From a virus, in the IMG/VR virus record IMGVR_UViG_3300045974_000166, positions 1 through 64,000 of that record: DNA of 64,000 nt, one strand, 5' to 3'. Positions within the stretch are counted from its first letter, which is position 1; each line of letters starts with the position of its first letter. This document shows positions 19,243 through 38,221 of the stretch, piece by piece. The notes below the pieces were generated by a model, which saw nothing but the letters and a program-made list of their open reading frames with translations, was not told the origin of the DNA and made no database searches. A program made the position numbers and the translations under genes.

Positions 19243-20883
19243 ATGGCAACTAAGAGACCAGAATGCTACAATGGCCAACTTAACCTAAAGGCTTCTGGTG
19301 TTCAAATTGAATTCACTGCCGAACAGGTAGATGAATGGATAAAGTGTTCTAAAGATCCAATTTACTTTATCAAGAAGTATGTCAAGGTAATCCACGTTGA
19401 CCGTGGAACTGTGCCTTTTGAGTTGTATGACTTCCAAGAAGACATCATACGGACTTATCACAACAATAGAAAAGCTGTAATTCTTACTGCTCGGCAGATG
19501 GGTAAAACCATTACTACGGCCGCGTATTTTCTTTGGGTGATACTATTCAATTCCGATAAGAACATTGCTATCCTTGCTAATAAGGCGGCCATGGCACGGG
19601 AAATTTTATCTCGTATCCAGTTCGGCTATGAAAATCTACCGTTTTGGATCCAGCAAGGTGTAGTTGTGTGGAACAAAGGTTCTATCGAATTAGATAATAA
19701 CTCTAAGATCTTCACGGCTGCTACGTCTCCCAATGCTATTCGGGGGCAAGCTTGTACCCATGTGTATGTAGATGAAATTGCATTCATTCCAAACAATATA
19801 GCCGAAGAGTTCATGACATCGGTTTTCCCAGTACTTTCTTCTGGTGAAACGACAAAGATCTTTATATCTTCTACGCCTAAGGGCATGAACATGTTCTACA
19901 AGATCTGGGTAGAGGCTAATGCAGGACGGAACGGCTTTGTGCCTGTAAACATCCCATGGTCTGCTCACCCAGCCCGAGATAAGGCTTGGTATGATGAACA
20001 GGTTAAAAATCTTGGTACAGTAAAGGCGGCCCAGGAAGTTGATTGTACATTCTACGGATCATCTAAAACTTTGATTTCTGGTCAGAAAATGGCTACAGTA
20101 CCATTCTTTGATCCCAAATTTATTTCTGGTGGTTTGAAGATGTATGAAGCACCAGTCAAGGGTCATTCGTATGCTTGCACAGTAGATACCTCGCGTGGTC
20201 AGCATTTAGACTTCTCTGCGTTTATCATATTCGACATCAGTACTACACCGTACCGAGTCGTAGCTACGTTCAAAGACAACACAATTGGACTGACTACGTA
20301 TCCGTTCATGATTATGAACACCGTGAAGCAGTACAACGATGCATATTGTCTGATTGAAATCAATGACGCTGGCCAGGAAATTGCTAATACGCTATTTTAC
20401 GAATTTGAGTATGCGAATGTCTATTTCACAGTAAAAGAAAATGTTACCGAGGGTAACGGTTATCCTGGTGTGCGAACTACCAAACGTGTAAAATCTATCG
20501 GTTGTGCGGTGCTTAAAGAACTAGTAGAAGGCGAGGTACTACTACTTAATTCTTTCGACATCATTCAAGAGTTGAATGTCTTTGAACAAAAAGGTGCTTC
20601 GTATCAGGCATCGGATACTAACATCAATGATGACTTGACTACGTGCCTTTGGCTTTTTGCTTGGCTCAGTAAACAACCCATGTTTTCAGATATCACAAAC
20701 ATCAACATTAGACATTTGTTGGCTCAAAAGAACGAAGCTTACATCATGGAAAACATGTCACCATTTGGAGAAGTTTCAGATGGTCTAGAAGATTCTATAA
20801 TGGATTTCAACATGATTCATTCTTCTGGCCCTACTAGAGATCCGTTACAGAATTGGCTTTTGTCGGATGTAAGTTACGATTAA
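19243..20883 (+). CDS. 17: terminase large subunit gp17
   Basis: ARQMGKT Walker A, YVDEIAF Walker B, ISSTPKG, VDTSRG, NDDL nuclease motifs. Confidence 0.97.
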   Translation: MATKRPECYNGQLNLKASGVQIEFTAEQVDEWIKCSKDPIYFIKKYVKVIHVDRGTVPFELYDFQEDIIRTYHNNRKAVILTARQMGKTITTAAYFLWVILFNSDKNIAILANKAAMAREILSRIQFGYENLPFWIQQGVVVWNKGSIELDNNSKIFTAATSPNAIRGQACTHVYVDEIAFIPNNIAEEFMTSVFPVLSSGETTKIFISSTPKGMNMFYKIWVEANAGRNGFVPVNIPWSAHPARDKAWYDEQVKNLGTVKAAQEVDCTFYGSSKTLISGQKMATVPFFDPKFISGGLKMYEAPVKGHSYACTVDTSRGQHLDFSAFIIFDISTTPYRVVATFKDNTIGLTTYPFMIMNTVKQYNDAYCLIEINDAGQEIANTLFYEFEYANVYFTVKENVTEGNGYPGVRTTKRVKSIGCAVLKELVEGEVLLLNSFDIIQELNVFEQKGASYQASDTNINDDLTTCLWLFAWLSKQPMFSDITNINIRHLLAQKNEAYIMENMSPFGEVSDGLEDSIMDFNMIHSSGPTRDPLQNWLLSDVSYD

Positions 20884-20909: not shown

Positions 20910-21851
20910 ATGGCACTATCTTTCAAAGAACAACTACAAAAGACCGGTATTGGAAATTATCCCGCCGAAGTACTAGCTAATCCTGGATCATATGGTGGTA
21001 CCGGTGGTACCACTCTAAACCCACTCAGCACAGCGACCGGCTTCGTCCCTGTTGGGCTTATTAATACCGCATCGAACACAAACGATGGCGTATTGAAAGA
21101 TTCGGCAGGAACGGCTGTTGCTGCTGTCAAAGCCAATATCATTCCGCAGACTGGTTCGTGGGCAACAATTTCCTCTCTGACCACAGGAAACAACTCAATT
21201 GCCGTTGCTACTACTTCACCAAATGCTACTGGTATTAATGGCCTTGGCCTAGGAACCAAACCTGCGTTGGTAGTTTTGTCTGCTGGAACGGCTACGGCAT
21301 TTGCTCCTGTTCAACCGGGGACTATTATTTGTCCAACTGGCCCGACAGATAATACGGGAGCTTTGGTGGGCTATACGTCTTTTGCAGAAACGGCAACACA
21401 AAGTCACTTAACTCCTGTAGGACTGAGTTTTTATGCTGCAAATTCTGACACTGCAACAAACCCGGGAGGGGGGCTAACTTTTGGTAGTGGTACTGGTGGC
21501 AACGGCGCAGGCGGGGATGGAGGAACTATCTTATTTATTGCTGGCTCAAGTCCCAATAGCATTGGCGGCAGCGTTAATTTAACCCCCGGAACAGGAGTAA
21601 CCCCCGGTAGCGTTAATTTAAATAACGCTAGCGGTTCTCCAACAGTTAGCGTTAACAATAATGGAAGTCTTGGATTCTTCGGTGCCACTCCTGTTGTCAA
21701 ACCAACGGCAGTGGCTAATGCCAACTTCACTAATGGGGCTGGTGCGGCAGTTTTAACTGGATTTAAGTCAGCAGGAGCTAGTGGAGCTAGTGCGTACACG
21801 TTAGGCGACATAGTTACGGCTCTAAAAGCTCTTGGCCTTTTAACTGCTTAA
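20910..21851 (+). CDS. Gly/Ala/Thr-rich virion protein
   Basis: Low-complexity beta-type ORF; GFFGATPVVKP motif and C-terminal LKALGLL. Confidence 0.65.
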   Translation: MALSFKEQLQKTGIGNYPAEVLANPGSYGGTGGTTLNPLSTATGFVPVGLINTASNTNDGVLKDSAGTAVAAVKANIIPQTGSWATISSLTTGNNSIAVATTSPNATGINGLGLGTKPALVVLSAGTATAFAPVQPGTIICPTGPTDNTGALVGYTSFAETATQSHLTPVGLSFYAANSDTATNPGGGLTFGSGTGGNGAGGDGGTILFIAGSSPNSIGGSVNLTPGTGVTPGSVNLNNASGSPTVSVNNNGSLGFFGATPVVKPTAVANANFTNGAGAAVLTGFKSAGASGASAYTLGDIVTALKALGLLTA

Positions 21852-21864
21852 CTGGCAGCACTAA

Positions 21865-23103
21865 ATGGATTTTCAATACGGTGCAGGCAATATGCAGGTA
21901 ACAGGAAGCACCGATGCAGATAATTTTACCTATACAATTTCAGAATTATCAACACCAAATGTCTTAATAAACAAACTAGACAGACTAGACGCACGAGTTT
22001 ATACTTCGGGGACAAGTAGTAATTTTAAAGTCACGCCCATTCAGGGTGTGAACCAGCACACTATTGCTTTTCAATTACTTAGTGGAGATGTAACTTTTGA
22101 TCCTGAAGGAAATATCTTAAGACTATCGGAAAGTAACCTTTCTCTTCAAATGAGTAATGGATTTTGTGCTCATACTATTAACAGAAATTTAACAGGATAT
22201 ACCATTATAGATAGTTGGAAAATAAATTCTTTAACGAAGCATGTTGACGATGCTATTAAAGCGATGGTTTTCGGAAAGACGCCTAGCACTGCACCGGGTG
22301 GAAATTTATTTATTTATACATCCGAAAGTGGTGGTACTGCTGCACCGAACTACGTCAGGAACCCTAACCTATTCACTGGCGGATTGGGCATGGAGGCAAC
22401 CAGTTGCAGCATGGACAATGGCGTGTTTGAGGCGGTGCTGATTTCCCCGCTGCATGTAATAACAAGTCACATGTTCCCGGTTGCTGGTGGAAACATCGTT
22501 TTCAAAGATAGTACAGGAACTTACATAACTCGTACAATTACTAGCGTTCTTCCTGTAGGGGTTAAACAATTTTTATCAGATACCACTTTCGATTATAGTG
22601 GGTTTGCAATTGGAAAATTAAGTGCTCCGATAACAACTATTGAGCCTTTAACAATTGTTCCTGAAAATTTACTGAGCTACATTCCATCTTTACATTACAA
22701 TTCGGACAACATGGTTGGAATACCCGCACTTTCCAAACACCATGTAAATGGAACAAGAATGAGGGTGGCAAGAATAACTGCGGCATCTCAATATGCAAAT
22801 ACTTCAATAGGTATTTTTCCGTATGGTATATTTTCAGCTTACCCAAATTATTCGAATGTAAATTATAACGCATGGTCGAGCAGTGTTACTGGCGGGGATA
22901 GTAACTCTCCCGTTTTTCTTCCAATCAACGGAAAAGCTGTTCTACTAACGTGTCAATGGCAACTTGGTGGTAGTCGACAATTTACATATATGGTTCCAGA
23001 AATCAATGCAGTTATGACTGCGCTCGGTGGTATCGACCCCGCAACCAGTGTCCCGTATCAGGTGAAGCACCCTGACCTGAGCATGTTCAACACGTACCCA
23101 TAA
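21865..23103 (+). CDS. protein with C-terminal trypsin-like serine protease fold
   Basis: AVLISPLHVITSH (His) and GGDSNSP (Ser) motifs; catalytic Asp unclear. Confidence 0.55.
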   Translation: MDFQYGAGNMQVTGSTDADNFTYTISELSTPNVLINKLDRLDARVYTSGTSSNFKVTPIQGVNQHTIAFQLLSGDVTFDPEGNILRLSESNLSLQMSNGFCAHTINRNLTGYTIIDSWKINSLTKHVDDAIKAMVFGKTPSTAPGGNLFIYTSESGGTAAPNYVRNPNLFTGGLGMEATSCSMDNGVFEAVLISPLHVITSHMFPVAGGNIVFKDSTGTYITRTITSVLPVGVKQFLSDTTFDYSGFAIGKLSAPITTIEPLTIVPENLLSYIPSLHYNSDNMVGIPALSKHHVNGTRMRVARITAASQYANTSIGIFPYGIFSAYPNYSNVNYNAWSSSVTGGDSNSPVFLPINGKAVLLTCQWQLGGSRQFTYMVPEINAVMTALGGIDPATSVPYQVKHPDLSMFNTYP

Positions 23104-23149
23104 CCCAATCCCTCGATCTGATTTCCACTCATCTCACCGGGATTACTAA

Positions 23150-23169
23150 GATGGGCCTTTCGGCCCATC
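23150..23169. terminator. hairpin at the convergent junction
   Basis: GATGGGCC-TTTC-GGCCCATC (GAAA tetraloop on - strand). Confidence 0.7.
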
Positions 23170-23505
23170 AAAGTTTTGTTTGGATGATAAGGAACAATTT
23201 CTAATCCTCAGCTTGGCTTAAGCAGCCAGAGCAAATTTCTCGTCGTTTGCAGTTAGAGAGTTTTACTTTTAACGTCTATCTGTGACGAGGTGCCCAAAAA
23301 GATACTCTTTTCGTGGTCGATCGCTATGTCAGCCCCATCAAAAGTACTCATGGCGTATATGGGCGAGTCCATTGCTGGAGAGTTTACCTGGGATGCCAAA
23401 CCTGATCAAGTATTACTACAAGATTTAGAGTACTTTTGGTGGAGCTGCCGGGACTTGCACCCGGGTGTCACAATCATTTCACAATCTGAGTTTACACCCA
23501 TTAGA
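23150..23505 (-). ncRNA. ssrA: circularly permuted (two-piece) tmRNA; tag (A)NDEKFALAA
   Basis: Acceptor piece ends CCGGG-TGCAAGT-CCCGG-CAGCTCC-ACCA at 23437, upstream of the 5' end GGGGCTG at 23336; G3-U70 pair; resume context TAACT-GCA; tag ORF 23250-23218. Outer ends approximate. Confidence 0.92.
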
Positions 23506-23611
23506 TTATAGCTACATTTTGAGCATAGTCTTGCCACTTACTATAAGACTATTCCACAAGCAGAGCTCGAGTATGTAACTTGTGAGGCAAATACTCAAAA
23601 TGTAGCTATAA
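23506..23611 (-). ncRNA. Y-shaped structured RNA element directly 5' of the tmRNA acceptor piece
   Basis: Perfect 18-bp closing inverted repeat plus two internal hairpins. Confidence 0.6.
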
Positions 23612-23615
23612 AAAT

Positions 23616-23624
23616 TATTTAATC
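23616..23624 (-). promoter_or_regulatory. putative late promoter GATTAAATA driving the tmRNA precursor
   Basis: TATTTAATC on + strand just upstream of the Y element. Confidence 0.6.
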
Positions 23625-25759: not shown

Positions 25760-25788
25760 GTTAATTCCTTTGTTTCAGAAGATGGTTT

Positions 25789-25820
25789 ATTATAACCCAA
25801 GAGGGATTATGTGTAAATTA
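25789..25820 (-). promoter_or_regulatory. early promoter cassette TAATTTACA-17-TATAAT
   Basis: -35 25812-17, -10 25789-94, followed by AAACCATCTTC and SD. Confidence 0.85.
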
Positions 25821-26019: not shown

Positions 26020-26208
26020 TTAGTGTTCTCCCTTACGAGCAATCATATCCAGCGCACCTTGGAAACCATGGTAGCTTTCGGCATAAATCGCTTTTGATGG
26101 AGCCTTGAAGATCTGATACAAACGACGAGTTTGGTTGTACTTGACTTTCCATGTGTCAAATTCCGTTTTGACTGTGATCGTTTCGCCGCGTTGAGTAACT
26201 TCAAACAT
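26020..26208 (-). CDS. hypothetical early protein
   Basis: SD AAAGGAAA after cassette. Confidence 0.6.
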   Translation of the reverse strand: MFEVTQRGETITVKTEFDTWKVKYNQTRRLYQIFKAPSKAIYAESYHGFQGALDMIARKGEH

Positions 26209-26236
26209 GATTTTCCTTTGGTTCAGAAGATGGTTT

Positions 26237-26269
26237 ATTATACTACACCAGAGAATATGTGTAAATTTA
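26237..26269 (-). promoter_or_regulatory. early promoter cassette
   Basis: TTTACA-17-TATAAT-AAACCATCTTC. Confidence 0.85.
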
Positions 26270-26440
26270 CTCCACGTTAACCTGAATTACAACTACTGCA
26301 TAGCCGTCTTCTTTTTCGAGTACTGGGAACATGTCAATAGAATCAATTTCAAACACATTTCCACCACGATTATCATTTACTTCAACTTGCCATTCTTGGG
26401 GCATTCTTTGAAGTTTGGCAACTAATTCGGCTACAGTCAT
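26267..26440 (-). CDS. hypothetical early protein (57 aa, not in ORF track)
   Basis: MTVAELVAKLQRMPQ...; lies between two promoter cassettes. Confidence 0.65.
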   Translation of the reverse strand: MTVAELVAKLQRMPQEWQVEVNDNRGGNVFEIDSIDMFPVLEKEDGYAVVVIQVNVE

Positions 26441-26472
26441 GATTTTCCTTTGAGATTTGGAGAAGATGGTTT

Positions 26473-26504
26473 ATTATACTACAACTAGTATTATGTGTAA
26501 ATTA
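26473..26504 (-). promoter_or_regulatory. early promoter cassette
   Basis: TTTACA-17-TATAAT-AAACCATCTTC. Confidence 0.85.
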
Positions 26505-38146: not shown

Positions 38147-38221
38147 TGGTGCAACCCCCGGGACTTGAACCCAGACCTTAAGAATTATGAGTTCTCGGCA
38201 CTACCATTATGCTAGAGTTGC
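38147..38221 (-). tRNA. tRNA with anticodon CAT (Met or Ile2)
   Basis: GCAACTC/GGGTTGC acceptor stem, CT-CAT-AA loop, GGTTCAAGTCCC T-arm, encoded CCA. Confidence 0.92.

What the first reader, a model, noticed from the sequence alone, without database searches (positions are those of the whole stretch)
23150..23505. Phage-encoded circularly permuted (two-piece) tmRNA
On the - strand the tmRNA 3' module (T-arm CCGGG-TGCAAGT-CCCGG, CAGCTCC-ACCA ending 23437) precedes the 5' module (GGGGCTG from 23336). The acceptor stem has the Ala G3-U70 pair. The 100-nt intervening segment is clamped by AAAAGTACTC/GAGTACTTTT, and the tag ANDEKFALAA* (23250-23218) follows a canonical TAACT resume context. Permuted tmRNAs are known from alphaproteobacteria, some cyanobacteria and a betaproteobacterial lineage; one in a T4-like phage is unusual. 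Inference: the phage supplies its own ribosome-rescue RNA late in infection, possibly evading host RNases or toxins or redirecting ClpXP tagging.
Basis: partly seen in the sequence, partly recalled or inferred. Interest (0 to 1): 0.9.

Follow-up and report, generated by a model that had tools for sequence, protein, structure and literature searches.

The report
Two-piece tmRNA gene in T4-like phage
A 192-kb uncultured T4-like phage carries its own split ("two-piece") ribosome-rescue RNA gene; it is real and kept by selection, but such genes are already documented in aquatic T4-like phages, so this is a new example and not a new kind of thing.

Summary
Rfam calls a permuted tmRNA on the minus strand: RF04321 at 103 bits (cut-off 47) and the betaproteobacterial subtype RF01850 at 87.8 bits (cut-off 84). 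Default ARAGORN misses it; at -ps95 it reports a permuted tmRNA with tag ANDEKFALAA.

The record is a complete-looking 192-kb T4-like myophage. It has gp23, a gp17-type terminase and 25 tRNAs, but no SmpB or SspB.

Three related viral contigs carry the same gene next to the terminase gene. Their tags differ but stay in frame. Fifteen base pairs show compensatory changes, four of them in the helix that clamps the 100-nt intervening segment. The inside of that segment is not conserved.

The layout matches chromosomal beta-type genes, including the ACCA-AAAG...CUUUU-GAU-GGGG junction. The spacer, however, is 2-4 times longer and the model score is far lower (88 against 169-296 bits).

"Unusual" is not supported. 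Buchholz et al. 2022 list 53 two-piece tmRNAs in isolated phages. One pattern search here hit at least 119 viral contigs. This scan already holds 582 notes on such genes in other genomes.

A late-promoter-like ATTAAATA motif upstream gives some support to late expression. The other functional ideas remain untested.

The parts
23616..23623 (-). ATTAAATA, a late-promoter-like motif (analogue of T4 TATAAATA) about 115 nt upstream of the tRNA-like domain
   Evidence: 11 copies in the window against 4.75 +/- 1.97 expected. Most plus-strand copies in the 1-24 kb region lie 25-45 nt upstream of structural ORF starts. TTGATTAAATA(A/G)TTTT recurs upstream in L004 and L003. Its function as a promoter is inferred.
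23506..23611 (-). Leader hairpin: a 21-bp stem (one mismatch) enclosing 64 nt, directly 5' of the acceptor piece
   Evidence: arms 23506-23526 and 23591-23611, 95% complementary. (MFE -39.7 kcal/mol, z -6.1). Not conserved in L002 or L004. Its role in processing or stability is inferred.
23505..23510 (-). TATAAT, a -10-like hexamer lying inside the 3' arm of the leader hairpin
   Evidence: It aligns with the -10 (T/C)ATAAT of chromosomal beta-type tmRNA genes and with the promoter part of RF01850. No acceptable -35 was found by the scan or by eye.
23437..23501 (-). Acceptor piece: P2 5' strand, T-arm (23464-23448), acceptor 3' strand (23447-23441) and encoded ACCA (23440-23437). The true 5' end is unknown.
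   Evidence: CM alignments. Covariation in the P2 helices and one compensatory T-arm pair.
23337..23436 (-). Intervening segment, 100 nt. A 10-bp clamp (23437-23428 with 23349-23340) is followed by the GAU leader (23339-23337). The interior is not conserved.
   Evidence: acceptor plus clamp fold, z -4.7; 20-nt inverted repeat; four compensatory pairs in the clamp; no homologue of the interior, and no shared internal fold with L002 or L004.
23147..23336 (-). Coding piece: acceptor 5' strand GGGGCUG (23336-23330), P2 3' strand, PK1 hairpin (23287-23273), resume context, tag frame, the conserved GAGGAUUAGAAAUUGUUCCUU block and the terminal hairpin
   Evidence: RF01850 full-length alignment; two compensatory pairs in the PK1 hairpin. 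Colinear with chromosomal beta-type genes.
23218..23250 (-). Tag reading frame: GCA AAC GAC GAG AAA TTT GCT CTG GCT GCT TAA = ANDEKFALAA*
   Evidence: The frame, the GCA resume codon and the stop are kept in the relatives, whose tags are ANEERFALVA (L002) and ANDAYFLVAANA (L004).
23150..23169 (.). GC-rich terminal hairpin GATGGGCC-GAAA-GGCCCATC. It is the 3' end of the tmRNA gene and also a terminator-like site for the convergent plus-strand late ORF that ends at 23103.
   Evidence: terminator-like on the plus strand. It matches the 3' hairpin of RF01850. The stem is kept in relatives, with one compensatory pair and several one-sided changes.

Best explanation
This is a working phage copy of the betaproteobacterial-type two-piece tmRNA (ssrA).

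Shown:
- The gene has the permuted order, a 7-bp acceptor stem with G3-U70 and an encoded CCA.
- It has a T-arm, a covarying P2 helix that would hold the two pieces together, and a PK1 hairpin.
- It has the U-A resume context and a 10-codon tag ending in LAA.
- These features are conserved by compensatory change in related phages.

Inferred mechanism:
1. The precursor is transcribed from a late-type ATTAAATA promoter, and possibly also by read-through or from the TATAAT.
2. It folds so that the acceptor stem plus the 10-bp clamp form an almost continuous 20-bp helix closing the 100-nt spacer.
3. Host RNase P cuts 5' of G1. Other host nucleases release the CCA end and discard the spacer.
4. Host AlaRS charges the RNA. 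Host SmpB and EF-Tu deliver it to ribosomes stalled on broken mRNAs.
5. ANDEKFALAA is appended and host proteases remove the product.

The likely benefit, together with the phage's 25 tRNAs, is to keep ribosome rescue running once host transcription, and with it the supply of host ssrA, is shut down.
For: - Rfam: RF04321 at 103 bits and RF01850 at 87.8 bits, both over the full model length.
- ARAGORN at -ps95 gives a permuted call with the same tag.
- In-clade covariation: 95.9% of cells paired against 36-49% when the partners are slid. Fifteen pairs have changes on both sides, against 5.7 +/- 1.9 in shuffles.
- The tag frame, the GCA resume codon, U/A at -5/-4 and the stop are kept in L002 and L004 while the tag sequences differ.
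- The gene is colinear with chromosomal beta-type genes. It shares the CCACCAAAAG...CTTTTGATGGGG junction, and the tags are similar: ANDENFALAA, ANDERFALAA and ANDEHFAIAA.
- The phage is T4-like with 25 tRNAs.
- The late-type motif lies upstream.
- Published precedent: PMC9004378. The lambda-immP22 hybrid phage needs tmRNA function to form plaques (PMC2481249).
Against: - There is no expression, processing, charging or tagging data.
- The RF01850 score is only 4 bits above its cut-off, against 169-296 bits for chromosomal members.
- The T-loop is UGCAAGU, with G where tRNAs and the bacterial beta-type genes have U55. The same deviation is common in the viral set.
- The phage has no SmpB and its host is unknown, so partner compatibility is assumed.
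- A close relative, L003 (TerL 92% identical), has lost the gene. The gene is therefore dispensable.
- The second stem of PK1 was not established, and one proposed P2 sub-helix is not supported.
Confidence: 0.75

Rival explanations
1. Competitor or modulator. The phage RNA binds host SmpB, AlaRS or ribosomes mainly to outcompete or retune host trans-translation. One version is tagging host proteins for amino-acid recycling, as speculated for Melnitz. Another is acting as a decoy, like the tag-less tRNA-like RNA of mycobacteriophage DS6A.
For: - PMC11915505 reports that the DS6A form inhibits endogenous tmRNA when expressed in E. coli.
- PMC9004378 proposes selective tagging of host proteins.
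- The phage supplies no SmpB of its own, so it must draw on the host pool.
- The T-loop is non-canonical.
Against: - A complete tag frame with canonical resume context and an LAA end is maintained in three diverged copies. A pure decoy does not need this.
- The tag is almost the same as chromosomal beta-type tags, so it offers no evident new fate for tagged proteins.
Confidence: 0.12
2. Backup against host defence. The phage copy replaces host tmRNA, or buffers translation, when host anticodon nucleases, RNA-cleaving toxins or abortive-infection systems damage tRNAs and mRNAs.
For: The evidence is only circumstantial. The phage carries a 24-tRNA array plus one tRNA-Met. mRNA cleavage creates non-stop complexes, which are tmRNA substrates (general knowledge).
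Against: - Nothing in the sequence distinguishes this from simple supplementation.
- The phage RNA keeps the same tRNA-like domain and tag type as chromosomal genes, so there is no obvious resistance feature.
- A close relative does without the gene.
Confidence: 0.08
3. Inactive passenger. A captured host ssrA, or the remnant of an integration site, that is no longer used.
For: - The RF01850 score is marginal and default ARAGORN misses the gene.
- The gene is lost in L003.
- tmRNA genes are common integration sites (PMC11915505).
Against: - Fifteen compensatory pairs and a preserved tag frame across copies whose TerL proteins are 81-91% identical show purifying selection on RNA structure.
- All functional elements are intact.
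- A lytic T4-like phage has no known use for an attP-type fragment, and this is a full-length gene.
Confidence: 0.05

Closest known systems
Phage-encoded two-piece tmRNAs of aquatic T4-like myophages (OM43 phage Melnitz, pelagimyophages such as Mosig, cyanomyophages); Buchholz et al. 2022, PMC9004378
   Same: A permuted ssrA with a complete tag in a lytic T4-like phage. The phage has no SmpB. The gene is an accessory one, present in only some relatives. The TerL here is 45-50% identical to the TerL of these phages.
   Different: - Melnitz ssrA is reported to be alphaproteobacterial-like, downstream of an early promoter, and to carry a glutamine riboswitch.
- This one scores best with the beta model.
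- It has no riboswitch hit even at E<=10.
- It sits beside the terminase gene behind a late-type motif.
- It has no nucleotide match in 50,697 deposited phage records.
Betaproteobacterial two-piece tmRNA, Rfam RF01850 (lineage of Sharkady and Williams 2004, as cited in PMC9004378)
   Same: - Colinear over all 331 model positions, including the position of the -10 hexamer, P2, the T-arm, the acceptor, the PK1 hairpin, the tag and the 3' hairpin.
- The spacer is closed by a helix abutting CCA, with a GAU leader.
- The tag is of the ANDExFALAA type.
   Different: - Scores 88 bits against 169-296 bits for three chromosomal genes.
- Spacer of 100 nt against 25-43 nt.
- T-loop UGCAAGU against UUCRAYU.
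- Carried by a phage.
Caulobacter-type (alphaproteobacterial) two-piece tmRNA, RF01849; Keiler, Shapiro and Williams 2000 as cited in PMC9004378
   Same: This is the functional paradigm. One precursor is cut into an acceptor piece and a coding piece, which are held together by base pairing and are active in tagging.
   Different: - Alpha-type spacers found here are short (mostly 11-36 nt) and usually have only 2-4 closing pairs.
- Alpha-like tags in the viral set are longer (for example ANDNFAPSGYALAA).
- RF01849 was not the best model for this gene.
Mycobacteriophage tmRNAs (one-piece forms; the tag-less DS6A tRNA-like form), PMC11915505
   Same: A phage-borne tmRNA-related gene that must act through host SmpB and AlaRS.
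   Different: Those genes are standard or truncated and not permuted. The DS6A form lacks a tag frame and inhibits host tmRNA.

Membership tests
tmRNA (ssrA), permuted form (RF04321) | Covariance-model score above the curated cut-off over the full model | tested here: met
   103 bits against a cut-off of 47, model positions 1-213, E 5.8e-19.
tmRNA (ssrA), permuted form (RF04321) | tRNA-like domain: 7-bp acceptor stem with the G3-U70 alanine identity pair, and a 3' CCA | tested here: met
   GGGGCUG pairs with CAGCUCC, with G3-U70 and an encoded ACCA. All seven pairs are invariant in three distinct copies.
tmRNA (ssrA), permuted form (RF04321) | T-arm with a 5-bp stem and 7-nt T-loop | tested here: met
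   CCGGG-UGCAAGU-CCCGG, with one compensatory pair in L004. The loop has G at the U55 position. That deviates from the bacterial copies but is frequent in the viral set.
tmRNA (ssrA), permuted form (RF04321) | Permuted gene order: the 3' half of the tRNA-like domain lies upstream of the 5' half, separated by an intervening segment | tested here: met
   ACCA ends at 23437 and G1 is at 23336 on the same strand, with a 100-nt spacer between them.
tmRNA (ssrA), permuted form (RF04321) | Long-range P2 helix joining the two pieces | tested here: met
   Helices 1 and 4 are 100% paired, with 2 and 4 compensatory pairs. One inner 4-bp sub-helix is not supported, at 56% paired.
tmRNA (ssrA), permuted form (RF04321) | Tag reading frame: Ala resume codon with a conserved upstream U-A, a hydrophobic C-terminal degron and a stop codon | tested here: met
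   UAACU then GCA...UAA, giving ANDEKFALAA*. The frame is kept in L002 and L004. The A86 rule comes from PMC2481249.
tmRNA (ssrA), permuted form (RF04321) | Pseudoknot PK1 upstream of the resume codon | tested here: inconclusive
   The hairpin CGUC/GACG has two compensatory pairs. I could not establish a conserved second stem.
tmRNA (ssrA), permuted form (RF04321) | Dedicated partner SmpB available | tested here: not met
   No SmpB (PF01668) is encoded in the 192-kb phage record at E<=1. A host SmpB is assumed and the host is unknown. This is normal for phage tmRNAs.
tmRNA (ssrA), permuted form (RF04321) | Processing into two pieces, alanylation and trans-translation activity | not testable with these tools
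No RNA data could be obtained.
Betaproteobacterial subtype (RF01850) | Score above the curated cut-off, and best among the subtype models | tested here: met
   87.8 bits against a cut-off of 84. It was the best model of its clan (the alpha and cyano overlaps were suppressed as lower-scoring). The result is marginal: chromosomal members score 169-296 bits.
Betaproteobacterial subtype (RF01850) | Beta-type precursor junction (a spacer-closing helix abutting CCA, and a GAU leader) and an ANDExFA(L/I)AA tag | tested here: met
   The clamp is 10 bp, against 6-9 bp in L207-L209. L209 shares CCACCAAAAG...CTTTTGATGGGG. Tags are compared. The spacer length (100 against 25-43 nt) differs.

The most novel reading that the evidence does not exclude
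The expanded, clamped spacer of phage two-piece tmRNA genes is a phage-specific, exchangeable slot. In this phage it is in a non-coding state: only the clamp is selected and the interior evolves fast. In many other viral contigs the same position carries ribosome-binding sites and short, apparently coding mini-genes.

The roughly 20-bp acceptor-plus-clamp duplex, and the 21-bp leader hairpin behind a late-type promoter, would then reflect a maturation route (for example RNase III-type cuts) that differs from the chromosomal genes.

The slot idea has already been raised by this scan on other genomes.
Probability: 0.25. Interest if true: 0.5.

Novelty: new member of a known kind. Interest (0 to 1): 0.3.

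Why it matters
The finding adds a clear, selection-backed example of a beta-type two-piece tmRNA in a new, uncultured lineage of T4-like phages. It also shows a practical gap. Default ARAGORN, the tool used in the published phage surveys, misses this gene and its relatives. Such surveys (53 two-piece genes in isolates) therefore probably undercount phage tmRNAs. Biologically, it supports the view that large aquatic myophages carry ribosome-rescue RNA alongside tRNA arrays as part of a translation toolkit. It does not open a new question by itself.

Tried and rejected
- **Default ARAGORN** on the window and on L002-L004 gave no tmRNA. It appears only with relaxed thresholds.
- **blastn ('distant')** of the gene against 50,697 phage records gave no match.
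- **An exact 28-nt TLD pattern** in IMG/VR gave no match.
- **Rfam at E<=10** around the gene found no riboswitch or other family in the spacer or leader. There is no glnA-type element as in Melnitz.
- **Sense mini-ORF in the window's spacer**: none found.
- **Antisense ORF 23290-23511** (73 aa) has no Pfam hit. Its similarity to the L002 antisense ORF is confined to 25 residues opposite the conserved tRNA-like domain. I rejected it as a by-product.
- **Homologues of the spacer interior** among 166 viral spacers: none. There is also no shared internal fold with L002 or L004.
- **Proposed P2 sub-helix AGAU/AUCU**: not supported. A possible alternative pairing of AUCU with the PK1 loop could not be confirmed in L004.
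- **The MFE cofold of the two pieces** forms the acceptor stem. It pairs the 5' end differently from the covariation-supported P2, so I did not use it as evidence.
- **The genome search 'relatives'** is not available for viruses.
- **The Sharkady and Williams 2004 paper** is not held.
- **The L003 replacement ORF** looked GIY-YIG-like to me by eye. It has no Pfam hit and only weak hits to PHROGs of unknown function, so I make no such claim.
- **A subtype or host phylogeny** was not attempted.

Full report
**1. Is it there?**

Yes. Reading the minus strand shows every element at the stated positions:
- T-arm at 23464-23448, acceptor 3' strand at 23447-23441, encoded ACCA at 23440-23437.
- A spacer of exactly 100 nt (23436-23337).
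- Acceptor 5' strand GGGGCUG at 23336-23330, giving a G3-U70 pair.
- The tag frame GCA...TAA at 23250-23218, reading ANDEKFALAA.

Rfam confirms it with two models over their full length. tmRNA_permuted (RF04321) scores 103 bits against a cut-off of 47. beta_tmRNA (RF01850) scores 87.8 bits against a cut-off of 84, covering 23147-23546.

ARAGORN as normally run finds only a tRNA-Met elsewhere in the window. With the threshold lowered to 95% it reports a permuted tmRNA at 23127-23530 with the same tag.

The five nucleotides before the resume codon are UAACU. U and A sit at -5/-4, where E. coli has U85 and the essential A86 (PMC2481249).

**2. What carries it?**

The window is the first 64 kb of a 192,097-bp IMG/VR virus record that CheckV rates complete.
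- It encodes a T4 gp23-type major capsid protein (E 3e-130).
- Its gp17-type large terminase is at most 50% identical to those of cyanomyophages and pelagimyophages.
- It has 25 tRNA genes, 24 of them in one array at 152-158 kb.
- It encodes no SmpB and no SspB.

'T4-like phage' is therefore correct, and the phage belongs to an uncultured lineage.

The tmRNA gene sits where the plus-strand late module meets the minus-strand block of small ORFs. It converges on a late ORF ending at 23103 and shares a GC-rich hairpin with it (23150-23169).

**3. Is it under selection?**

Among viral contigs with the closest terminases:
- L002 (TerL 91% identical) and L004/L005 (81%) carry the same gene type directly after the terminase gene. 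RF04321 scores 99-109 bits and RF01850 scores 91-103 bits.
- In the window, two extra ORFs without family matches (20910-23103) lie between the terminase gene and the tmRNA gene.

The tags are ANDEKFALAA, ANEERFALVA and ANDAYFLVAANA. The resume codon, upstream U-A and stop codon are kept in all three.

I laid a structure derived from the window on the alignment of the three distinct copies:
- 95.9% of cells are paired, against 36-49% when the 3' partners are slid by 1-3 columns.
- Fifteen pairs change on both sides, against 5.7 +/- 1.9 in shuffles.
- The compensatory pairs fall in P2 (2 + 4), the spacer clamp (4), the PK1 hairpin (2), the T-arm (1), the 3' hairpin (1) and one weakly supported sub-helix (1).
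- The acceptor stem, including G3-U70, is invariant.

Caveats: there are only three distinct sequences, and the structure came from one of them. The compensatory changes in the other two copies are nonetheless independent of that choice.

The gene is not indispensable. In L003 (TerL 92% identical) the slot holds an unrelated 223-codon ORF, and only the 3' hairpin region of the tmRNA gene remains. Four more distant relatives have no tmRNA within 8 kb of the terminase gene.

**4. Which kind of two-piece tmRNA?**

The best Rfam subtype is beta.

I reached chromosomal beta-type genes by sampling 151 genomes of one GTDB order (Burkholderiales, inferred from the Variovorax MAG used as the centre). 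One of the 151 is an unpublished genome, G029. It gave only a sub-threshold match, and no sequence from it is used. Three genomes have a gene above the cut-off, at 169-296 bits.

Their tags are ANDEHFAIAA, ANDERFALAA and ANDENFALAA.

The phage genes align colinearly with them. The aligned elements run from the -10 hexamer through P2, the T-arm, the acceptor, the PK1 hairpin, the tag and the CCUU...CCAA block to the terminal hairpin.

The chromosomal beta genes also close their spacer with a 6-9-bp helix abutting CCA and use a GAU leader. One of them shares the junction CCACCAAAAG...CTTTTGATGGGG with the phage. Spacers of mostly alphaproteobacterial genes are 11-36 nt long and usually have only 2-4 closing pairs.

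So this is a beta-type architecture. It differs in three ways:
- The spacer is 2-4 times longer (100 nt; 83-109 nt in the relatives; 25-43 nt in bacteria).
- The T-loop is UGCAAGU and not UUCRAYU.
- The model score is much lower.

**5. The spacer and the leader.**

The acceptor stem plus the clamp fold into an almost continuous duplex of about 20 bp (z -4.7). The same inverted repeat, 18-22 nt long, is present in L002 and L004.

The interior of the spacer has no homologue among 166 viral spacers. It has no fold shared with the relatives, no Rfam match and no sense mini-ORF. The antisense ORF is a by-product of RNA conservation. Only the clamp is selected.

Directly upstream lies a 21-bp-stem hairpin at 23506-23611 (z -6.1), which the relatives lack.

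A first-reader note pointed to GATTAAATA just before this hairpin. My test of the ATTAAATA motif gave:
- It occurs 11 times in the window, against 4.75 expected.
- Most plus-strand copies in the structural region lie 25-45 nt upstream of ORF starts.
- TTGATTAAATA(A/G)TTTT recurs upstream of the slot in L004 and L003. L002 has AATAAATAG nearer the gene.

This gives moderate support to late transcription. A TATAAT at 23510-23505 aligns with the bacterial -10 but has no -35. No terminator separates the gene from the upstream minus-strand ORFs. Timing is therefore not settled.

**6. How unusual is it?**

Not very.
- Buchholz et al. 2022 (PMC9004378) found tmRNA genes in 402 of 18,146 phage genomes. 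These made up 133 unique structures, 53 of them two-piece and 50 of those from aquatic phages. Permuted tmRNAs were in 17 of 47 Melnitz-like contigs.
- The 2025 tmRNA database lists 79 phage sequences (PMC11915505).
It yielded 166 distinct full-length genes.
- A sample of these score best with either the beta or the alpha model, at 51-129 bits.
- Default ARAGORN called 114 of the 166.
- This scan already holds 582 notes on phage permuted tmRNAs in at least 431 genomes.

The window's gene itself has no close copy outside its small clade.

**7. Mechanism and verdict.**

The best reading (0.75) is a functional phage ssrA that relies on host RNase P, AlaRS, SmpB, EF-Tu and proteases. It would sustain ribosome rescue during infection.

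The rivals cannot be separated from it by sequence alone:
- a competitor or modulator of host trans-translation (0.12);
- a backup against host defence (0.08);
- an inactive passenger (0.05).

The gene is a new member of a known kind. Its interest lies mainly in the annotation gap and in its clean covariation evidence.

Noticed in passing
L240, L241, L248, L258, L259, L261, L267, L268, L285 and others; also L243, L273, L310, L405, L333 (spacer between CCA and GGGGCTG in each): In about 40 of 166 viral or metagenomic permuted tmRNA genes the spacer carries an AAGGA-type ribosome-binding site and an ATG, followed by a 24-32-codon frame. Most of these frames encode a single hydrophobic helix, for example the MEKKLMW...GYDFR family, whose TGA stop overlaps the GAT leader. 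A second family (MIEWIK...KYLSGK) is hydrophilic. Length, start, stop and hydrophobic pattern are conserved. A crude synonymous/non-synonymous count was not decisive. The scan has reported spacer-borne genes in other genomes. The papers I searched mention only a tRNA gene or a repeat element as spacer cargo.
   Followed up: partly
L003:7909-8700 (minus strand): In the closest terminase relative, the tmRNA slot holds a 223-codon ORF with no Pfam match and only weak hits to PHROGs of unknown function. It is preceded by TTGATTAAATAG and by a roughly 108-nt tRNA-like fold (CTCACC...GGTGAG with a GGGTTCAAGTCCC T-arm) that ARAGORN and Rfam do not call. Only the CCAAACAAAACTTT block and the hairpin at the 3' end of the tmRNA gene remain.
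   Followed up: partly
window 20910-23103 (+): Two ORFs of 313 and 412 aa with no Pfam or PHROG match are preceded by ATTAAATA at 20879. They lie between the terminase gene and the tmRNA gene only in this phage. L002 and L004 have the tmRNA directly after the terminase gene.
   Followed up: partly
window 25765-25820, 26206-26267, 26438-26504; L003 near 10042, 10335, 10776 and 13324; L002 near 12113 and 16907: A repeated element of about 65 nt occurs several times in the minus-strand block of small ORFs. It is shared at 78-89% identity with the related contigs. It may correspond to the promoter cassettes or clamped RNA units that other notes describe for this genome.
   Followed up: no
L205 / L089 (contig C420 of G001, 8.6 kb, binned as a Variovorax MAG): A permuted tmRNA (RF04321 80 bits, tag ANNDYWLKTA, 12-bp spacer clamp) sits on a short contig of a MAG that has a second, weaker tmRNA-like match on another contig. 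This suggests a phage or foreign contig binned into the MAG.
   Followed up: no
166 viral or metagenomic tmRNA genes (L237-L475): Non-canonical T-loops dominate the set: UGCGAUU, GGCAGUA and GGCGGUA, all with G at the U55 position. Canonical UUCGAUU is in the minority. This may be one reason default ARAGORN misses about a third of these genes.
   Followed up: no
G000:C1:152059-157834: An array of 24 tRNA genes covering most amino acids lies far from the tmRNA gene. One further tRNA-Met is at window 38147-38221.
   Followed up: no
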